Below, in pieces: positions 621-63,917 of a stretch of DNA of 64,000 nucleotides. Both the position numbers and the translations under genes were made by a program. Every line of letters begins with the position of its first letter. Position 1 is the stretch's first letter. The notes beneath the pieces are model-generated. The model did no database searches. It was given only the letters and a program-made list of their open reading frames with translations, and had not been told where the DNA came from. Source of the stretch: Leucoraja erinacea (lineage: Eukaryota); assembly GCF_028641065.1 (NCBI RefSeq), contig NC_073405.1, forward strand, positions 15,066,001 to 15,130,000, given 5' to 3'.

Positions 621-878
621 CAGTGCCGTCCATGTTTGGGACAAAGACCCATCATTTAGCTCTCTTATACCTGCATTAAGGAGGCATTTAAACACACATG
701 AGCAATTACAAATACCTGTGAAACTGTGTGTCCCAAACATTATGGTGCCCTGAAATGGGGGGACAATGTGCACTTTAATCACATGTGATTGTTTTTCTTT
801 TACAAATCTCAAATTGTGGAGTTAAGAGGCAAATAAATAAATCATGGGTCTTTGTCGCAAACATTATGGAGGGCACTG
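621..878. mobile_element. Internally deleted Tc1-like element
   Basis: TA|CAGTGCC...GGGCACTG|TA. Sequence matches both ends of the 1.6-kb element at 22180-23795. Confidence 0.9.
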
Positions 879-920
879 TATATGCTGTTTAAATATGAAG
901 TAGTAGTGATAGGATCTTAC

Positions 921-1177
921 TTTTGTGCTCCAGAATGTGATTGACCAAACGGTTTTTGTGCTTTGTGTAGTACAGGCACAAAGGACAATGCAATTTTCCA
1001 GATTTCTTCTCAACTGAAGCCAAGGCAAATTCTTTCTTTAAGCAAACATCACTCTCATTTTCATTCCCCATTTCTCCAAGACTTCCTTCAAAAATATTAA
1101 CGTCCACCTTCCTTGTAGAGTTTTTTTTATCATCCGCAGCGAGTTTGCATACTTCTGTGTTCCGAGAAAGTGTATTT
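921..1177 (-). CDS. ZNF462-like gene, coding exon 6 (257 nt, phase 2 to 1); gene continues left of the window
   Basis: Bounded by TTCCAG| and |GTAAGA. KLHCPLCLYYTKHKNRLVNHILEHK matches ZNF462 DLRCPLCLYHTKYKRNMIDHIVLHR. Confidence 0.9.
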
Positions 1178-2629
1178 CTGGAAATTATCAAATAAAAATA
1201 CTTCTGCATTGCTTATCTCAGAAAATTCTAAGTAACTACAATTGAATTTATCTTAATAATATTATTTTTACTTTGTAGGTTTGTATTTTGAAAACCAGCC
1301 TAGTATTTGCCAGAGAAAAAAAGCTAAATAAACAATGAAGATACAATTAGCAAACAAGAGACCAGGTTGATTAAAATCAGGAGAAAGGATAAGCACTTAC
1401 ATAGAAAAAGTTTACTAGACCAAACCAGATTATATATTCTCTTGAAAAGTTGAGGCAAATAAGAACAAACATCATCAGAAGACCAGGTATCAGCATGACC
1501 TAATCCATATTTCCATAGCAGCTCGTGTTGAATAGGAAATCTTGTCATTAATAGGCAGCCACGACTAGTAGCAAGCCACGTTCAACAACATAAAAGTTCA
1601 AAGATTTTCTCAAGGATGAACAAAAAACTCAACCAGAATAACTAAGTGCATCCTAATCACTTGTTTATCTTTCAGTGCACTTTGATTTTGTGTGCTGTAT
1701 TCTACACAATCTTGCTATCTGAAGACACCAACCCAATGAGCAGCAATATGCATATTAAGGAACATATTAAAGAAAAAGGCACAGGAATAGAATGATACCA
1801 GGTGAGCTCTCAGAAGAACACAATCACCCTCACCCCAAATATCAGGGTGGACTTTGACTGCATTAGCAATAAGGGACTACCTGATTAAAAAGACACTTCT
1901 ACTAAAATTATTGTCCCCAATTCAGATTGCGACTCTACATATTCCCCCATTACTTAGCTGAATGAATCCAAATGAGACAATGTTCCTTGTATTGCACTGC
2001 ATATAGCTCTTCAAACTGTGACTTCTTCACAAGATACACTTTCAATGAATCTGCTCAACTCAGGAAGTATAAACATCAGGAGGACCAGTGACCCCCCTTT
2101 TAACTATATCTCTAAAACACCAATGTTAGATCCCCACAATTTTGTGTCGTCTGCAATCCCCAGATTACCATTATTATTCAATTAGATTTCACAGATAATC
2201 AAGATGAATAAATTAACACATATATTCATGAATGGTGGCTAGAACCTTAAACAGAATTACCTTACTATTTCGTGGTAAAATCCAATAAAATTCAAATTAA
2301 GTTTCTCCTCAAAGGATACAAATAAGCACAAAGTCTATTGCCAATGCAACAAAGGAAATCTTCAATGCACTTTAACACATTTGAACTCTCAGCAGCCAAA
2401 CGATTATTTTACCTTGTGAAGTGAGAATAATTATTTGCAAAACCAACTCAATAAACCTAGGAGAACATACAACTGCATTTCTATTTGCAATCAATTTTGG
2501 ATGAGGATTAAGAAATCGGCCTAGTTCACAATTTCTATCTAACATACATTTTTAATATCAGACTTTTTCAGCATACATGCTTGCAAAAATATCTTGATAA
2601 GATTGAAAACTCTTAACTCTGGTTCTATA

Positions 2630-3180
2630 GAAATGTTATTGAATATAGAAAATACTGAACAAGAACAGGTCCTTCAACCCACATCTATATGAACATGATG
2701 CTACAGCCATCTCTTATTTACATGCACATAATGCATATCCATCCATTTCCTGCATATCCAAAAGTCTCAAATGCCACTATCGTATCTGCCGTAACTACCA
2801 ACCCCAGCAGCACATTTGAGGCACTCACTACCCTCTAAAAAGAAACTTGCCCACATATCTCCTTTAAACTTTGCCCCTCTCGCCTTAAAGATATATCCTC
2901 TAGTATTTGATTTTTCCATCCTGGGAAAAAGGTTCTGAATGTCTACCTTATCTAAGCCTCTCATCATTTTATATATTTCTATCAGGTCTCCTTGCAACTT
3001 CTGTTGTCCAGAGAAAACAATCCAAGTCTGTACAAACTGTCCCTCTAGCTAATACCCCCTAATCCAGGCATCATTCTGGTAAACCTTCTCTGCACCCTTT
3101 CCAAACCCTGCACATCCTTCCAATTATGGGGGAACCAAAACTGCACACAATATTCCAAATGCAGCCTAACCAAAGTCCTG
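2630..3180 (-). mobile_element. CR1-type LINE 3' fragment
   Basis: GDLIEIYKMMRGLDKVD...LFP...TRG is the typical CR1 ORF2 C-terminus, followed by a CR1-type 3' tail. Confidence 0.85.
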
Positions 3181-5481: not shown

Positions 5482-6379
5482 AGGGGGGTTGCACGTAAGG
5501 TCACTGGGTCATAGGGCTTGATGCACAGAGCCGCTCAATCCATCTGGAGGACATCCGTAACCTCCGGTATATGTTATTAATGCAAGAAACGCGTACTTTC
5601 CTACCTGTTAAAAATGGCCAAAATGTTGAATTTCTGCGCTGAAAAAAATTGTGGAAGTCGGGGTAAGTGTGAGAGACATGTCCCCAACTTTAGAATTCCA
5701 AAAGTGAAGCGAAATGAAAGTAAAGAGAAGCAAGTGTGGAAGGGACAACAGCAGCTAAAGTGCTTGGTAAACATTGGCTGTGCAGATATCGGAAATGAAA
5801 ATATTGGGAATTATCGCGTTTGCTCACTGCATTTCATCAAGTAAGGCATTATTTGTGTTTTTTCTTGATTCCTTTGGTATCTAAAAAGTCTCAGAAGTGA
5901 TGAATCTGGCTGTGAACTTTTCTTCAGATGCGTTTTCATTTTGTATGTAAAAACCACTTGAGAACCATGGGCGATTTAAAAAATTTATAGCCAGATTTAT
6001 CACTTCTGAAACTTTTTAGATGCTAAAGGAATCAAGAAAAAACACAAATAATGCCTTTGTTGATGAAATGCAGTGAGCAAACGGCCAATGTTCGCCAAGC
6101 ACTCTGGCTGTTGTTGTCCCTTCATTTCTCGCTTCTATCTACCGTCATTTCTCCTCACTCTTGTAATTCTGAAGTAGGCTAAATGTCTCTCGCGCTTATC
6201 CCAATTTCCATAATTATTTACGGCGCAAAAATTGACAATTTCAGCGGGTTTTAACGGGCCCGCTACGCTGGAAACAATGGTAAGTGCCTACCTGCAGTTC
6301 ATCGCGTGTACTCCACTTGGAGTAGCGTAGCAACAGTACGGGTCATGGGTCGTGACCTGACTGCCGTGAAACCTCCCCT
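5482..6379. mobile_element. Palindromic non-autonomous DNA transposon with THAP-domain remnants
   Basis: Terminal inverted repeats AGGGGGGTTGCACG / CGTGAAACCTCCCCT and a long internal inverted repeat (about 5600-5920 vs 5980-6255). ORF 5614-5844 has the THAP pattern C-x4-C...FRIPK...RVCSLHF. Confidence 0.75.
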
Positions 6380-14820: not shown

Positions 14821-17637
14821 CAGATTTCCTCGAAGGCACTGATCCTCAGCTTCTAGTATACATTTTTTGTCTGCCTCTTTATATTTCACTTTGTTCAAAG
14901 GATCGACAGTTCCACAGAAAAGATCTCTGCTGTCAACATTTTGCTCTTCTGGCATCACGACATTACAACCCAAGTGCTCACTCTCACGTCTGCTCAATGT
15001 GTGCTTTCCGAGATGAAATCTTGTCATATTCATTGAGTTTGCAGTCACAGGGAATGAATTGTCCAATTTTCTTTTTGGGATGCAGTTTTCATTTCCCAAT
15101 TTATCTCTGATTGGTATTGCTTTCACAAAGCAGTCACTTCCTTTGCAGCTGATCAATTCCAGTTTCTCAGCATTACTACATTTTAAAGGGATATCTGCAT
15201 CTATCTTACTCTCTGTATATATTCTCCTGTCCATCACAGCATTAACATTTTCACTTCCATTCTCTCTTAAAGTTTTTATTTCATCAAATGGATGAAAATT
15301 AGTTATATTTAAGTTGGTCTTTTTGCACTCGATTGTGCACTTATTTTGAGAATAAAATTTGAAGTGTCGTATTTTATAATGGAACAAAAGTTTTTTTTGA
15401 GTGATAGCTTTAAAAGAGCATAATATACATATTTGTTTTTCCATACTAGCTTTCAGCTCTTCATTACTGGTTATCAGAGAGCCAAGCTCATCGTGACCTT
15501 TTCCATAATATCTATGTGGAGGCTCAATATTATGAAACACGAGATAATGATTAACGAGTCCTTCCCGAATTATATGAGTGAACATGCACAAAGCACATTT
15601 GAAAATAATTTCAGAGTCTTCAAGTTGAGCATAAGTAATACTGCGCTTGATGCAATGGTGTCTACAAATAACTCGCCTTGAAGAGCAGGCAAAATTACAG
15701 ACCTGGCACTCAAATACCAATTGTGGCTCACTGTTGGAGGTTGAAAGGGATGATAATTGTCCTCTGCCCTGCAGGTAGTTGACATTTTGACTCTTTGGTT
15801 CTTTCTTGGACAGGTGACTACTTTGGTAATGCTCAAATAAAGAAAACCAGTCCCCACTGTATGAACAGTGCTTGCAGAAACATATCTTAGAAGATGCATC
15901 CAAGCAAGGGAGAGTTGGATCAGAAGATTCTGAGTCAACCAAAAATACATCATGCAGAGACAAGCAAAAATTCCTCTTTGTCAGCATGTTTAACTTATGG
16001 CTATAATTATGAATCTTTTTACAGGACATTTCCTCTTCAGAATGTTGTTCCTGAGAGTGTAAAAAGACATAGCTGATGTTAGCACTTGAAAAAGGGCAAA
16101 TGTTGCACTTATACATGCGTGTGTAAACATTTCCTAGTTTTCTTTTATTACTTGATGTAGAATACATCTTGCTCTCATCTACTGATTTTGTTAACTGTTC
16201 ACCCAAATTATAAATTTTGCAAGCATTTAAATTTGCCCTTTTAACATTATCATCTGTATCAGATAACACAACTTCAATTTCAGCTACTGTGTCAATGAAA
16301 CAATTGTCACCATACATGGGAAACTCCACCGCTTTTTCAATCTTCTGTTGGTTTAAGAAGCTATAGGCCTCCAGCATCCACTTAGCCTGTTGTTCCTCTG
16401 TTGTTCTACAATATGGAATAGTTTGTTTACGCCTCGCACTTCGATCATTTAGCAGGGATACTACAGGCATGCGTTTGATTGGCAGTATCCTGCGTTTTTT
16501 CAGATTTTTCACTATGTCTTCCAAAGCCAGACATTTACTAGAAGCTGGATTAACACAGTACAAGTCATTTTCATTGGTCTTCTTCTTAGGAGTCATTATG
16601 GTTGAAAAGTATAAAGGTGTACCAATAAAATCTCGAGCCATTTCTGGAACTGCATTAATATCTGAATAACCGAAACAAGGTACTGAAAATTGCATCTGAT
16701 CATTAATCTGAAGCAACAAAGATGTCTCACAATTTCGGTCAATGTCCTCCTTACTTAAATAACTACTTGATTCATTATTATCCAACTTACTACTGTAAAC
16801 AAATGGTTCTGCGATGGAGGATGCCAAATTTTTATTTTCATTTTTTATGCTCATATCTGGTGTATTTACAGTGAAATCATTTCCTACCGATGATAATATG
16901 TAGCTGTTCGATGATAATTTTTTTGACATGCATCGCTTATTACAAAGCTTTAGTGCTCTTAAACCTTTGGAAAAACGAACACTGCTTTTAAGTTTTCGCT
17001 TTCCACTGGGGTTAAAATGGACATTTCTAACATGACGCAGGATGCAATTATGGAACAAAGTGTGAAATCGACAAAGAATACAATGAAATAAACATAGTCG
17101 TTTTATATAGAGCAAAGTTTGTTTTTCATATTTTAACATTTTGTTTGGGTTTCTTTGTCCAAATGTAAGTTGGGTTATAGATTCCTCTGGCATGTTCTTT
17201 GAAGACTTGTAACCATCACATTTTCCAGTGATACTTGAAATATTTTTTCTGACACTGTGTTGATACTCAGATCTAACTGTCTTTATTTTCTTCACAATTG
17301 CCTTTATTTTCAGAGACTCGTTGTTGGATGAATTAATTTGAGAATTCAAGCAACTGTTTCTTGTTCCAAAGCACTGCAGCCCTTTTGAAGAGGCTGAGAT
17401 TTCTTTACTTAATTTAAAGTGGCTGTGCTGCTCCTTTGTATGATCTTCAAAGCACTGCTTGTTAAATGCATAATATCCACACCACATGCACAATATTTTA
17501 TCACTTTCTATTATTGGTTTTCTATTTAATTCTAGTTTTATCCCAGCTTCAGATGACTTATCTAGATTAATCTGTTTAGATGAACTATCCTGTGCTTTGT
17601 CAGATGTAACAAGAAAGTAATCTTCAGACAACTCCAT
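14821..17637 (-). CDS. ZNF462-like C2H2 zinc-finger protein, large first coding exon (939 codons)
   Basis: Part of a 949-aa ORF with several C2H2 fingers. VFECQVCNFACSSRRVICRH...FKCALCMFTHIIREGLVNHY...EELKASMEKQICILCSFKA aligns by eye with ZNF462 VFRCQLCKYFCSTRKGIARHY...FKCALCAYTNPIRKGLAAHY...EELRRAVEKKKCSLCSFQS. Phase-0 donor CTG|GTAGGG at 14821/14820. The start ATG at 17637 is assumed; a possible acceptor lies at 17652. Confidence 0.9.
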
Positions 17638-18349
17638 TCCCTTAGTTATTTCTGAAATATTTTCATAAGGTTATGTATGACCAAAATATTTTATTCTCAA
17701 TTCATCAGCATTGGCAGCCCACAAGTGTGAATAACATTAATGGTATCCTTTACAAATGATCCAGTTCTGATTACTTGTTGGAAAACCAGTGTTTCCTTTC
17801 ACTATCATGGTGCAATATTATACACATTTATTTCCTGCTTGCAAGCACATTTCACGTTAGCATGTAATTTACAATCAAAAGTAGAAGTCTGTTCAATTGA
17901 ATATTCTTGTTTTGTCATTTTGTTTTTAAACAGTGCCACAAAAGATATTCATATTTTCTTTGAAAGCTAAGTATCCATTCTTATCGTGACATTGCTGACC
18001 ATTGACGCAGTCAGTTGATTGTTATTTTGATTGCTGTGAATAAATTCTTCAACATCTCCGCTGAAGGTATCTTTGTTCCAAAATATAAAGTTTTCTCCTA
18101 TAAACAGTAAGAGATAAAAAATTACAATAAATCACAAAGTCACACAGCACCTGCAGTGCATCCGTTTTAATTATTCTTTCCTGATTGCAGTAAAGATGGG
18201 GGGGAAAGATAGATAGGATAATGGGAATTTCTCTGATAGGGCAAGGCCAAGGTGGCCATAGGGATAATTTGTTGACATCATCTGACTCATTAATGGAGGT
18301 AATTGGTACATATAAAAAGGTAAAATGCAGGGCCATAGGATATGTCCAG

Positions 18350-19340: not shown

Positions 19341-19626
19341 AGAGTTTAGGTAAGGGGCCCCAAGTAGCAATGAAACAAAGACTGGAGACATAAGCGATAG
19401 CAATGTAGAATTCACCTATCCATCATCCTGCTCTTATCTGGTTTTATTTAGCACCGTCCATCCACCTTCCCCCACAGCTCCATTTGCTCTTTTTTTATTT
19501 TCTTTATCCGTTTACACATATCACCCTCCAAACTATCTCTAAATTTCCCTCTCCTCCACCTGTCCATCTGACCATCATCCACCACCTCACCTGGTTCCTC
19601 ACCTTCCAGCCCGTTTTACTCCTCTC

Positions 19627-19860
19627 CATAGAAACATAGAAATTAGGTGCAGGAGTAGGCCATTCGGCCCTTCGAGCCTGCACCACCATTCAATATGATC
19701 ATGGCTGCTCATCCAACTCAGTATCCCGCACCTGCCTTCTCTCCATACCCTCTGATCCCCTTGGCCACATCTAACTCCCTCTTAAATATAGCCAATGAAC
19801 TGGCCTCAACTACCCTCTGTGGCAGAGAGTTCCAGAGATTCACCACTCTCTGTGTGAAAG
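19627..19860 (-). mobile_element. CR1-type LINE 3' end
   Basis: CATAGAAACATAGAAA tail and AGGCCATTCGGCCC 3' motif in reverse orientation. Confidence 0.8.
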
Positions 19861-20066
19861 TCCATCACTTCTTTAAACGGACTATCTTCCCTCTACATCC
19901 CCAATCCCGATGTAAGGTTTTGACCAAAAAATGTTGATCCACCTTTTGCCTCCACAGGTGTTGCATTCCTTATCCACTATTCGGACATGATAGTAAGTAC
20001 AAAATTCCACTTTACTTTGCCATCCAATCGCTTCAATGCAACGACTGGATCTATTTTTACAGTGTA

Positions 20067-20276
20067 TGCCCGTCTCACTTAGGACACCTGAACGGAAACC
20101 TCTGGAGACTTTGCGCCCCACCCAAGGTTTCTATGCGGTTCCCGGAGGTTTTTGTCAGTCTCCCTACCTGCAACCTCCGGCAACCACCTGCAACCTCCGG
20201 GAACCGCACGGAAACATTGGGTGGGGCGCAAAGTCTCCAGAGGTTTCTGTTCAGGTTTCCTAAGTGGGACAGGGTA
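20067..20276. mobile_element. Palindromic MITE (Harbinger-like ends)
   Basis: Inverted arms of about 80 bp: (G)CCCGTCTCACTTAGG...GGAGACTTTGCGCCCCACCCAA vs TTGGGTGGGGCGCAAAGTCTCC...CCTAAGTGGGACAGGG. Confidence 0.8.
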
Positions 20277-21335: not shown

Positions 21336-21714
21336 ATCTGGTTGCCATCTGGATCTCAATGTCTGAAAGGATGGTCAAGATTTAAAAAAAAAATCTTTTG
21401 TACAGTATTTGGATGTGGTCTTGAAGAACTCTAAAATTCAAGATTGCATTTCAAGTGATGGATGGTGAGATTATTTGAGGTAGTTCCTTCTCAATTAAGG
21501 GATGTTGGGGGTGAGGGGAATTGATTGTCCTACATCATGTTTTTTTCTGATGGACTACAGTAAAATGTTCTTTAGTTATATTAAAAAATAGAAAAAATGG
21601 TTTTGGATTTGGGCCATTCACCGCCTTGCACTTTTCAATTGATGGGTACTATACAAAACTCAACATGATTTTGCAAAGATTCAATCTGTGCCTGACCCAT
21701 CTTTCAGCAGTGAA

Positions 21715-22110
21715 TAGTAGTAGGCCCCTCTCGGTCATGACTGATGGTCATGCATGGTGGTGATGCATCCTAGTTGTGCAGGTGATGTGTAGTCGGATAC
21801 AAGACAGGCTGTTCCCCATGCAGCACATCCCCCCTCTCCATGTCGCTGATCGATCCAAAGGAACAGCAGGGCCGTTACAGTTTGGCACCAGCGCCGTCGC
21901 AGGAGCTGTCAGAGCGAGGTTGTAGACAACAACGAACTGCCTTAGGGGCTCCGACTCCAGACTCCATGAGTGGATATGGCCACAAGGCAGTGGAGGTTTT
22001 AAATTGGAGCTTTCCCTCTCCTAGATGGACTGCCTTCCTAGGCTGACGAGCCCCATCTGCCCGAGACTCGTGGGGGCGGGAGTGTCTACCTTCCCGTGCA
22101 GGTATATAGC
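21715..22110 (-). mobile_element. RTE-related non-autonomous retroposon (tentative)
   Basis: Minus strand resembles RTE-clade 5' UTRs (GGGCAGATGGGGCTCGTCAGCC...GGAGAGGGAAA..AAACCTCC) and ends in a short (CTA)n tail. Recognised by eye only. Confidence 0.5.
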
Positions 22111-22179
22111 TCAGCAGTGAACAACAGAACAAAATACATAGTGTGGTCTGCCTCACTGATTTAGATCAAAGGCTGCATG

Positions 22180-23795
22180 CAATGCCCTCCACAATGTTTG
22201 GGACAAAGACCCAGAATTTATTTATTTGCCTCTGTACTCCACAATTTGAGATTTGTAATAGAAAACATCACATGTGGTTAAAGTGCACATTGACAGATGT
22301 TAATAAAGGCCATTTTTATACATTTTGGTTTCACTGTGTAGAAATTACAGCTGTGTTTATACATAGTGCCCCTGTTTCAGGGCACTATAATGTTTGGGAC
22401 ACAGCAATGTAATGTACATGAAAGTAGTAATGTTTAGTATTTTGTTGCATATCCTTTGCATGCAATGACTGCTTGAAGTCTGCGATTCGTGGACATCACC
22501 AGTTGCTGGGTGGCTTCTCTGGTGATGCTCCGCCATGCCTGTATTGCTTATACTTGTTTTGGGGGCTACTCCCATTCAGATTTCTCTTCAGCATATAAAA
22601 GGCATGCTCAATTGGGTTCAGATCAGGTGATTGACTTGGCCACTCAAGAATTGACCATTTTTTAGCTTTGAAAAACTCCTTTGTTGCTTTAGCAGTATGT
22701 TTGGGACCATTGTCTTGGTGTAGAATGAACCACCGGCCAATGAGTTTTGAGGCATTTGTTTGGACTTGAGCAGATAGGATGCTTCTATACACTTCAGAAT
22801 TTATTATGTTACTACCTTCAGCAGTTGTATCATCAATGAAGATAAGTGAGCCATACCTTCAGCAGCCATATATGCCCAGACCATAACACCCCCACCACCG
22901 TTTCACAGATGTGGTGGTATGCTTTTGATCTTGGGCAGTTCCTTCTCTCCTCTGTACTTTGCTCTTGCCATCACTCTGATATAAGTTCATCTTTGTCTCA
23001 TCTGTTCACAAGACCCTTTTCCAGAACTGTGGTTGCTCTTTTAAGTACTTTGTGGCAAACTGTAACCTGGCCATTATATTTTTGCAGCTAACCATTGTTT
23101 TGCATCTTGCAGTGAAGCCTCCGTATTTCTGTTTATGAAGTTTTCGGCGGACAAATCCGCACCCGACTCCTGAAGAGTTTCTGATCTGTCGGACAGGTGT
23201 TTGGGGATTTTTCTTTACTATAGAGATAATTCTTTGGTCATCAGCTGAGGAGGTCTTCATTGGCCTAACAGTCCCTTTGTGATTAGTAAGCTCACCAGTG
23301 CTCTCTTTCTTCTTAATGATGTTCCATACAGTTGATTTTGGTAAGCCTAAGGTTTGGCTGATGTATCTTAACAGTTTTATTGTTTCTCAGACTCACAATG
23401 GCTTCTTTGAATTTCATTGGCACAACTTTGATCCGCACATTGATAACAGCAATAAAAGTTTCCAAAGGTGATGGAAAGACAGGAGGAAAGACTAGGTGCT
23501 GCGAGCTCTCTTATACCTGCATTAAGGAGGCATTTAAATACACCTGACCAATTACAAACGCCTGTGAAGCCATGTGTCCCAAATATTATGGTGCCCTGAA
23601 ATGGGACTATGTACAAACACAGCTGTAATTTCTACATGGTGAAACCAAAATATATAAAAATACCCTTTAATAAAATCTGACAATGTGCACTTTAACCACG
23701 TGTGATTTCTTTTCTATTACAAATCTCAAATTGTGGAGTACAGAGGCAAATAAATAAATGATGGGTCTTTGTCGCAAACATTATGGAGGGCACTG
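22180..23795 (-). mobile_element. Near full-length decayed Tc1-like transposon with IR/DR-type long TIRs
   Basis: TIRs of about 220 bp with internal direct repeats. Transposase remnants HQDNGPKH...LEWPSQSPDLNPIEH (DD34E) and DDQRIISIVKKNP, with frameshifts. Confidence 0.93.
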
Positions 23796-23827
23796 TATAT
23801 ACTGTTTAAATAGTGATAGGATTTTAC

Positions 23828-24015
23828 TTTTGTGCTCCAGAAAGTGATAGACCAAACTGTTTCTGTACTTTGTGTAGTACAGGCACAAAGAACAATACAA
23901 TTTTCCTGATTTCTTCTCAACTGAAGCCAAGGCAAATTCTTCCTTTAAGCGAACATCACTTATTTTCATTCCCCATTTCTCCAAGACTTCCTTCAAAAAT
24001 ATTAATGTCAACCTT
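23828..24015 (-). pseudogene. Partial duplicate (pseudo-exon) of ZNF462-like exon 6
   Basis: Close copy of 921..1110 (EFALASVEKKSGKLYCSLCLYYTKYRNSLVYHFLEHK). Carries a 2-nt deletion frameshift, lacks the exon 5' end and acceptor, and retains the donor GT. Confidence 0.9.
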
Positions 24016-24917
24016 ATACCACAGGCAAAACATGTTTTCAATCATCTATCAAAAATCAAAGTCCAGGAGTTATTCAATGGGTCTTGCAGCATTTCTGGAA
24101 AACATGGATAGGCGATGTTTCGGGTTAGGGCCCTTCTTCAGACTTAAAATAGTGTGTGTATTTTCCCATATACTGAGCCTGGTTGGTCAGAACATCACTA
24201 TAGTAAGAGCTTTGTTCTATGTCCCAACCAAGCATTTATTGCACTAATTTTCAGATGTATTGTCTTTACCAAAGATTCACAGTATCTCCAGGAAGTCCTG
24301 TGGGTTACATATGGCTTTCCACCGTGACTCTTCGTATCATGTCTTGGATTCCCTACTTGCCCTTCACCTTGCATTCCACTCTGCTTCAAATATTGCTACA
24401 TGACACATTCTCTCTCTTCCCCCCCCACCTCCCTCCCTCACCGTTACTTCAGACTCTCCCAGGACAAAAAAATGGAGGATGTTGTGAAATGTTACAAGAA
24501 GTATAATTTCCATCTTTATATCCATGTATTTCAAATGTTGTTAGATCGTAAATATGGTACTTTTAGTTTTTGCACATTCATGGAAAATTACTGATAATTT
24601 AAACTTTGTTTAGCACAAAAACATTTGTTGCCATACAATGTCCTCCCATCTTCATTGCCTTGTATTACACACTTTAGCCCTTGAAACAGTCTCCACGTGT
24701 CTGCTTCTCAAATTCCTATTTTTCAAATGCTCTAAAAGCACTAATTGATTAGGAAATCTGGAGGTAATATGTTCATACAGTGGCTGCAAAAAAACAAAGA
24801 CAAAGTACCTGTAAACATTTTTGACTCCACTAACCTCAGGCAGCCCACGTCTCCGTCTTCTCGTCATTCTCAGTATGTGAACAAGTCAACATTCAGCTAT
24901 GTAGTTTATATTTAATC

Positions 24918-63564: not shown

Positions 63565-63917
63565 AAGTGGTTAAGGTAAATGTCTTGAAGATAGTGAATT
63601 TGTTTGGAACTTTCTTCCTCACCAGATGGTGGAATCAGAACCTTTGAACATTTTTGGATCTGAAGTTGATTCACAATATCTAAATGAGACCGTGGCAACA
63701 TTACCTTGAGATTGTTGTCGGATCAGTTGTGATCTTATTGAGTGATGGAGCAGGCTTGAGGGACCAAGTGACCTACTGCTGTTCATAACTCGTGTTTGTA
63801 TGAAATAAGAGAAACTGAACATAATTTCAGAATAGTGTTGCACAGGGACTGACGCCTCCACTTGTTTGATGCTGTGCCTATTACGTTTCATTTAGGTTTT
63901 AGAGTTCCACAAATATA

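What the first reader, a model, noticed from the sequence alone, without database searches (positions are those of the whole stretch)
22180..24015. Tc1 transposon appears to have carried a piece of host zinc-finger exon to a new site 23 kb away
Seen: the right end of the 1.6-kb Tc1 (ending 23795) is followed by about 220 bp homologous to 879-1110, i.e. intron stub, splice donor and about 190 nt of exon 6. At the genic site the same Tc1 end abuts the same flank, but that element is internally deleted (621-878). Both copies share a variant in the right TIR (TTTGTCGCAAAC, versus TTTGTCCCAAAC expected from the left TIR). Their left flanks are unrelated, so homology starts exactly at the left TIR tip, and a TA lies at the distal junction (24015-24016). 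Inference: transposition that bypassed the right end captured host exon DNA and hopped locally, and the donor was restored by incomplete gap repair. This would be a snapshot of exon capture by a cut-and-paste element.
Basis: partly seen in the sequence, partly recalled or inferred. Interest (0 to 1): 0.7.

Follow-up and report, generated by a model that had tools for sequence, protein, structure and literature searches.

The report
Tc1 copy carrying dead exon fragment
An old DNA transposon in a cartilaginous-fish zinc-finger gene has a second copy 23 kb away that brings along 220 bases of the gene's exon and intron; the transposon likely carried them when it jumped, but DNA repair could make the same pattern, and the extra piece appears to be decaying without function.

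Summary
A full-length DD34E Tc1 (22180-23795) is followed by 220 bp that are 93.6% identical to 879-1110: the intron stub, donor and last 190 nt of coding exon 6 of a ZNF462-like gene. That flank occurs twice in the genome. Contigs of a related organism hold both copies, so it is not an assembly error. The copy looks as old as the family's burst (about 5% divergence) and shows no sign of constraint (10 replacement, 2 silent changes; no acceptor). The shared TIR variant is not private: 43 ends carry it against 4174 without. The junction TA arises by chance 13-24% of the time. 47 of 60 family copies are interrupted, so the donor's deletions need no special repair story. A weak TIR-like site sits at the distal junction (roughly 1-3% chance). 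No empty site was found in relatives. Best reading: a transposase-initiated end-bypass or one-ended event (0.5). Rivals: repair-driven template switch at a second Tc1 (0.3), ordinary duplication (0.17). It is a plausible natural case of a known mechanism with no sign of function.

The parts
621..878 (-). Element A: internally deleted Tc1 (37 bp of one TIR, a 102-bp internal piece with inner direct repeat, 117 bp of the other TIR), TA on both sides, in the intron after coding exon 6
   Evidence: each deletion junction occurs once in the genome
879..920 (-). Intron stub with GT donor at 920-919 (source of the copy)
921..1177 (-). Coding exon 6 (counted from the large exon) of a ZNF462-like gene, ending in a C2H2 finger; 921-1110 is the copied part
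14821..17637 (-). Large first mapped coding exon of the host gene; the distal copy lies about 4.5 kb upstream of it
22178..22179 (+). Left target dinucleotide of element B, reads TG (inferred decayed TA; 9 of 102 sampled ends show the same TG reading outward, 5 show CA, which is the outward reading here)
22180..23795 (-). Element B: full-length decayed Tc1, about 224-bp TIRs with inner and outer direct repeats, DD34E transposase fragments on the minus strand
23774..23774 (+). Variant base in the outer direct repeat, shared with position 857; carried by about 1% of family ends
23796..24015 (-). Duplicated flank: intron stub, donor (copy exon end at 23828) and 3' part of exon 6; pseudo-exon
23987..24016 (-). 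Weak TIR-like stretch at the distal end (candidate cryptic end; 12 of 21 core positions in the best register)
24015..24018 (+). Distal junction with two adjacent TA dinucleotides (24015-16 and 24017-18)
   Evidence: bridged by a contig of organism G (record 19)

Best explanation
A Tc1 transposon and 220 bp of the adjacent ZNF462-like exon and intron exist as a second, decaying copy 23 kb away, likely made in one transposase-initiated event during the family's burst. Shown: two copies, a boundary exactly at the left TIR tip, one shared insertion site at the right end, a full-length element at the new site, and no sign of constraint on the copy. Inferred: the transposase joined the left end to a nearby TA, but the right end was not cut at its TIR. 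Either a weak TIR-like site about 230 bp into the flank served as the second end (end bypass), or only one end was transferred and repair synthesis ran through the element into the flank before end-joining. The source exon stayed intact, most simply because the product landed on a replicated sister chromatid. The donor's internal deletions may be unrelated later events.
For: Boundary at the TIR tip with unrelated left flanks. Age: A-only 12, B-only 9 and shared 2 derived bases in 256 element columns, one of the shared being a family polymorphism (8 of 32 rows). B is 5.3% from the family majority at non-CpG sites against a family mean of 5.1%, so the split falls near the insertion time, when transposase was likely present. 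No remnant of a second right TIR at the distal junction. TA at the junction. TIR-core likeness at the junction: 12 of 21, reached by 0.2% of background sites; best-of-four-register upper bounds 2.8% and 1.1%. In the register that uses TA 24015-16, the next donor base is T, the base reported as critical for mariner strand cleavage (PMC4344528, passages). End bypass is a described mechanism for P elements (PMC8277862, passages).
Against: The two cryptic-end clues use different registers. The best core match (end at 1111/24016) needs TA 24017-18, which is a poor target half-site (68% of background TA half-sites score as well) and has no flanking T at the donor. The better TA (24015-16; 33% of background as good) gives only 9-10 of 21. 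Three of the other sites in 909-3000 score higher (13-14) and two tie. Neither candidate end has the terminal CAG of the TIR. The motif test was devised after seeing the junction. TA at a random junction has a 13-24% chance. Nothing inside the element ties B's left part to A: the family is star-like. Sleeping Beauty did not show single-ended events in an assay where piggyBac did (PMC3952818, passages). An old local Tc1-plus-flank duplication with a breakpoint inside the element exists elsewhere in this genome. No empty site was seen.
Confidence: 0.5

Rival explanations
1. Repair-made hybrid. Site B first held its own normal Tc1 (independent, or an ordinary local hop from A). After excision there, gap repair started on the sister copy, switched to A through Tc1 homology, ran 220 bp past A's right end and was end-joined to B's right flank.
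For: Gives the same anatomy, age and TA. Gap filling with a strong bias to nearby templates is reported as the main origin of single-copy Pack-TIRs in animals (PMC8277862, sections 8 and 12). An estimated 8,400 elements give an 18% chance of a neighbour within 25 kb, and a third copy starts at 63916. The junction T can be read as 1-bp microhomology.
Against: Needs two events. It does not predict any TIR likeness at the junction. In the cited cases the filler lies between the TIRs, not outside them.
Confidence: 0.3
2. Transposase-independent local duplication: a replication template switch between two existing Tc1 copies, or a tandem duplication between them followed by deletion of most of the duplicate.
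For: Such duplications occur here. G000:C1:140174300-140190300 holds a Tc1 part plus about 2.5 kb of shared flank (92% over 2072 aligned columns), with one breakpoint inside the element and no TA at the distal junction. L048/L049 is a 99% duplication across both sides.
Against: It does not predict an age at the burst, a junction free of element remnants, a TA, or TIR likeness at the junction.
Confidence: 0.17
3. Retrocopy of an unspliced read-through RNA.
For: Exon piece, intron stub and transposase all lie on the gene's strand.
Against: No poly(A) tail, and the copy ends exactly at the TIR tip.
Confidence: 0.02
4. Assembly artefact.
For: None.
Against: The copies differ by 6.4% plus indels. 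Organism G has separate contigs for each site, one bridging the distal junction (record 19; records 23, 24).
Confidence: 0.01

Closest known systems
End-bypass transduction by Drosophila P elements (Tsubota and Huong 1991; seen only as cited in PMC8277862; the paper itself was not held)
   Same: Element plus one-sided flanking DNA at a new site, with the element still linked to the parental copy.
   Different: Described there upon artificial transposase activation, in another superfamily. Here it is a natural vertebrate Tc1, the flank is at the element's 5' end, and use of a substitute end is only weakly indicated.
Pack-TIRs (PMC8277862; abstract, sections 8 and 12, passages)
   Same: Single-copy, nearby, same-chromosome duplication of a gene fragment tied to a TIR element.
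   Different: Pack-TIR filler lies between element sequences on both sides, and parental copies with adjacent elements were excluded. The authors state that end-bypass cases may be missed.
Single-ended or aberrant transposition of piggyBac and Sleeping Beauty (PMC3952818, passages)
   Same: One end joined to a proper target while the other stays attached to donor DNA; cryptic ends are named as one possible route.
   Different: Plasmid assays; seen for piggyBac, not for Sleeping Beauty; the authors say the routes give hard-to-distinguish products.
Maize Ac/Ds composite insertions (PMC4270019, abstract only) and co-movement of DNA next to a Ds (PMC1978519, abstract only)
   Same: Transposition with aborted replication or an atypical end duplicates or moves flanking DNA.
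   Different: hAT elements in plants; composite insertions need two nearby elements and have termini on both sides of the duplicated segment.
Tc1 elements with long IR/DR ends (Sleeping Beauty type; the grouping is recalled)
   Same: DD34E spacing, Pfam DDE_3 and HTH_Tnp_Tc3_2 matches, about 224-bp TIRs with two direct repeats, TA targets.
   Different: No Repbase or Dfam name could be assigned with these tools.

Membership tests
Tc1 (DD34E) transposon | DDE transposase with 34 residues between second D and E, and a paired-like HTH | tested here: met
   DDE_3 E=6e-10, HTH_Tnp_Tc3_2 E=2.9e-12; spacing counted by hand in the ORF fragment 22496-22858
Tc1 (DD34E) transposon | Terminal inverted repeats and TA target duplication | tested here: met
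   TIRs 91% identical over about 224 bp; 81 of 102 sampled ends have TA; A has TA on both sides; B reads TG on the left
End-bypass transduction | Element and contiguous donor flank at a new site, other boundary at the true element tip | tested here: met
End-bypass transduction | Target duplication brackets element plus flank, shown against an empty site | tested here: inconclusive
   TG left, TA right, chance 13-24%; no empty site among the 3 related organisms laid
End-bypass transduction | Substitute TIR-like end in the flank | tested here: inconclusive
   12 of 21 in one register, 9-10 of 21 in the register with the better TA; not the best site in the flank
End-bypass transduction | Whole new copy descends from the donor element | tested here: inconclusive
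   no linked subfamily markers among 54 oriented copies
Pack-TIR | Captured DNA lies between element sequences on both sides | tested here: not met
   no Tc1 sequence right of 24015
Ordinary segmental duplication | Homology extends past the element on both sides | tested here: not met
   left flanks unrelated
Functional shuffled exon | Splice acceptor, open frame and purifying selection | tested here: not met
   native acceptor absent; nearest candidate acceptor (24094) meets a stop after 7 codons in the frame of the native exon; 10 replacement and 2 silent changes
Functional shuffled exon | Inclusion in transcripts | tested here: inconclusive
   the one raw RNA run laid had almost no depth on the part of the host exon covered

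The most novel reading that the evidence does not exclude
A natural vertebrate Tc1 whose outer transposase-binding repeat had mutated used a cryptic TIR-like site inside a host exon as its second end, and moved element plus exon piece to a TA 23 kb away: cut-and-paste end bypass of a kind described for activated P elements and left out of the animal Pack-TIR survey.
Probability: 0.3. Interest if true: 0.6.

Novelty: new member of a known kind. Interest (0 to 1): 0.35.

Why it matters
If end bypass is right, this is a natural example of a Tc1 element moving host coding DNA that lies outside its ends. The main animal survey says its pipeline may miss that class (PMC8277862). It would justify a genome-wide search for one-sided flank duplicates and would bear on the fidelity of Sleeping Beauty-type elements. 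As a single old locus with a decaying copy, it has no apparent effect on the host gene.

Tried and rejected
Private TIR variant: rejected (43 against 4174 ends). It sits on one TIR in 17 and on the other in 9 of the oriented carriers, and on both in 0 of 7 carriers with both ends covered. Neighbouring positions vary as often (128 and 61 ends for two transversions each). A as a member of a short non-autonomous subfamily: rejected, each junction matches only A, apart from one 1-mismatch hit not examined. Subfamily test for a hybrid B: no linked markers. Flanks of B as halves of an older repeat: each found once, uninformative. Empty site: organisms E, F and G are about 3% diverged in unique flanks; none showed a joint across B among the rows listed, and the tables were cut by repeats. 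State of A's deletions in relatives: no listed contig bridges either junction. Gene conversion between the copies: E, F and G each show a single contig over 153-226 bp of the shared flank, but assembly collapse explains this as well, so no claim is made. Expression: no RNA holder listed; run X22 had near-zero depth on the host exon; X20 gave no cover of the exon. More cases: of 102 end flanks compared, 7 pairs matched near the tip; three are same-site duplicates (A/B, L048/L049, L081/L082, the last not examined further) and four are offset matches that look like shared neighbouring repeats. Of 3 nearby same-strand pairs sharing another rare variant, picked by eye from the 100 listed of 128 hits (none among the 61), 1 shares a flank and it lacks this anatomy. 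Host gene 5' end: not located, so whether B is intronic or upstream is open. A 'longer' homolog search found nothing. Earlier scan notes: none. Literature: 8 searches listed no report of this locus or of natural Tc1 end bypass in a vertebrate; the library lacks most subscription papers, and no supplements were read.

Full report
Observation. A self-comparison of the window shows 762-1110 matching 23679-24015 and 658-759 matching 23504-23605. The flank pair 879-1110 / 23796-24015 has 206 matches in 220 ungapped columns and 12 gap columns. On the left, homology begins at the TIR tip (621 / 22180) and the outer flanks are unrelated. The flank was found at 2 places among 2 candidates in the 2.19-Gb genome.

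The element. B (22180-23795) is a decayed full-length Tc1: TIRs of about 224 bp with inner and outer direct repeats, and minus-strand transposase fragments matching DDE_3 and HTH_Tnp_Tc3_2. The captured flank is therefore at the element's 5' end. The family is large and old: 4174 exact 26-mer ends, about 8,400 elements by estimate, and a mean 5.2% divergence from the majority in 61 loci. A (621-878) keeps TA on both sides and has two internal deletions, one with 1 bp and one with a few bp of microhomology. Each junction is unique in the genome.

The host gene. It is a ZNF462-like gene found in cartilaginous fishes (13 homologs). The nearest named protein is from a skate at 89% identity, so the window is likely from a skate (inference). 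Exon 921-1177 has AG and GT ends, keeps the frame when joined to the upstream exons in a test model, and is matched by 5 of 6 proteins mapped. A 17-residue gap in that mapping implies one more small exon, which makes this the sixth coding exon counted from the large one. The copy lacks the acceptor and first 67 nt. It differs by 10 replacement and 2 silent changes and one frameshifting gap; the skate homolog P0002 has the A-type residue at 8 of the 10 (read), so these arose in the copy. B lies about 4.5 kb upstream of the first mapped coding exon; the gene's 5' end was not found.

Reality and age. In organism G one contig spans 23898-24138 across the distal junction (record 19), and separate contigs follow A and B from 991 (records 23 and 24). 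In organism F a contig joins the element end to a flank with 11 gap letters, as B has (record 14). The 2-bp deletion in B is absent from E, F and G. The duplication is thus real and older than a split of about 3%. In 256 shared element columns, A alone has 12 derived bases, B alone 9, and both share 2, one being a family polymorphism. The copies therefore parted early; the 95% upper bound on one shared change is 5.6, up to about a third of the age.

The TIR variant is rare, not private: 43 ends against 4174, on either TIR and never on both among 7 carriers with both ends covered. One shared rare allele in 256 columns has a 24% chance between unrelated copies, so the variant adds little to what the shared flank already shows. 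It does fall on a base conserved in both direct repeats, which fits a crippled end but does not show one. TA at or next to a random junction has a 13-24% chance. Only 13 of 60 sampled copies run unbroken for 1400 bp from the tip, so A's state is ordinary.

Cryptic end. Read inward from 1111/24016, the flank matches 12 of 21 positions shared by the inner and outer direct repeats; 0.2% of background sites do as well. Allowing four registers, the printed bounds are 2.8% (strict, 11 or more; observed 12) and 1.1% (relaxed, 12 or more; observed 13). Against this: the test was devised after seeing the junction; three sites further out in 909-3000 score higher; that register needs the poorer TA (24017-18) and has no T next to the cut at the donor. 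The register with the better TA (24015-16) has that T but scores 9-10 of 21. The clue is suggestive only.

Mechanism. A tip-exact left boundary shows that a transposase placed B's left end (inference from Tc1 biology). The burst-age split, the absence of a second right TIR, the TA and the weak TIR likeness favour one aberrant transposition (0.5, split about 0.3 cryptic end and 0.2 one-ended transfer with repair synthesis). Excision of a separate Tc1 at B with template-switching gap repair gives the same product (0.3); nearby-template gap filling is reported as common in animals (PMC8277862). Ordinary duplication remains (0.17): a comparator on contig C1 has a Tc1 part plus about 2.5 kb of shared flank, a breakpoint inside the element and no junction TA. 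These odds are my judgement, not a computed result.

Comparison and novelty. It works like P-element end bypass, known to me here only through its citation in PMC8277862. It is not a Pack-TIR, because the host DNA lies outside the TIRs. That survey excluded parental copies next to elements and says it may miss end-bypass cases. PMC3952818 (passages) notes that single-ended, cryptic-end and bimolecular routes give hard-to-distinguish products, and that Sleeping Beauty did not show single-ended events in their assay. Eight literature searches listed no report of this locus. Papers seen: PMC8277862 (abstract, sections 8 and 12, passages), PMC3952818 (passages), PMC4344528 (abstract, passages), PMC1978519 and PMC4270019 (abstracts). 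No supplements were read; Supplementary Fig. 1a of PMC8277862 defines the end-bypass model and was not seen.

Verdict. A real, old, single local duplication tied to a Tc1 end, likely transposase-linked, mechanism not settled, copy apparently non-functional. New member of a known kind; interest 0.35.

Noticed in passing
G000:C1:140174300-140190300 (L112, L113): Old local duplication, 7 kb apart, of a Tc1 part plus about 2.5 kb of flank (92% identity); one breakpoint lies inside the element; both copies share another rare TIR variant. Used as comparator.
   Followed up: partly
L048 and L049 (G000:C1:11304054-11307079 and 11351909-11354934): 99% identical over the whole 3-kb loci, 48 kb apart: recent segmental duplication or assembly duplicate.
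   Followed up: partly
window 17712-18015, minus strand: Remnant matching the N-terminal part of the shark proteins upstream of the first in-frame Met (17637), cut off by a stop; the first 90 or so shark residues were not found in the window. The gene may have lost its N-terminus in this lineage.
   Followed up: partly
window 21714-22110: A high-copy insertion bracketed by an 11-bp direct repeat (near 21703 and 22111), 70 bp left of element B; looks like a retroelement fragment (family not identified).
   Followed up: no
window 24080-24144: A short interspersed repeat supplies a candidate splice acceptor at 24094 that resembles the native exon 6 acceptor; the native-exon frame hits a stop after 7 codons.
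   Followed up: partly
window 63916 onward (L066:918-1989): Third member of the same Tc1 family, internally deleted, without the TIR variant and with an unrelated flank.
   Followed up: partly
window 19625-20273: Repeat-rich stretch including a 205-bp palindrome (20069-20273); contigs of organisms E, F and G skip it with 150-195 other letters between.
   Followed up: no
window 5604-6258: A 655-bp self-inverted stretch, about 70% complementary.
   Followed up: no
window 859-1100 in runs X12, X15, X17: One contig covers both copies over 153-226 bp in each related organism; gene conversion or assembly collapse.
   Followed up: partly
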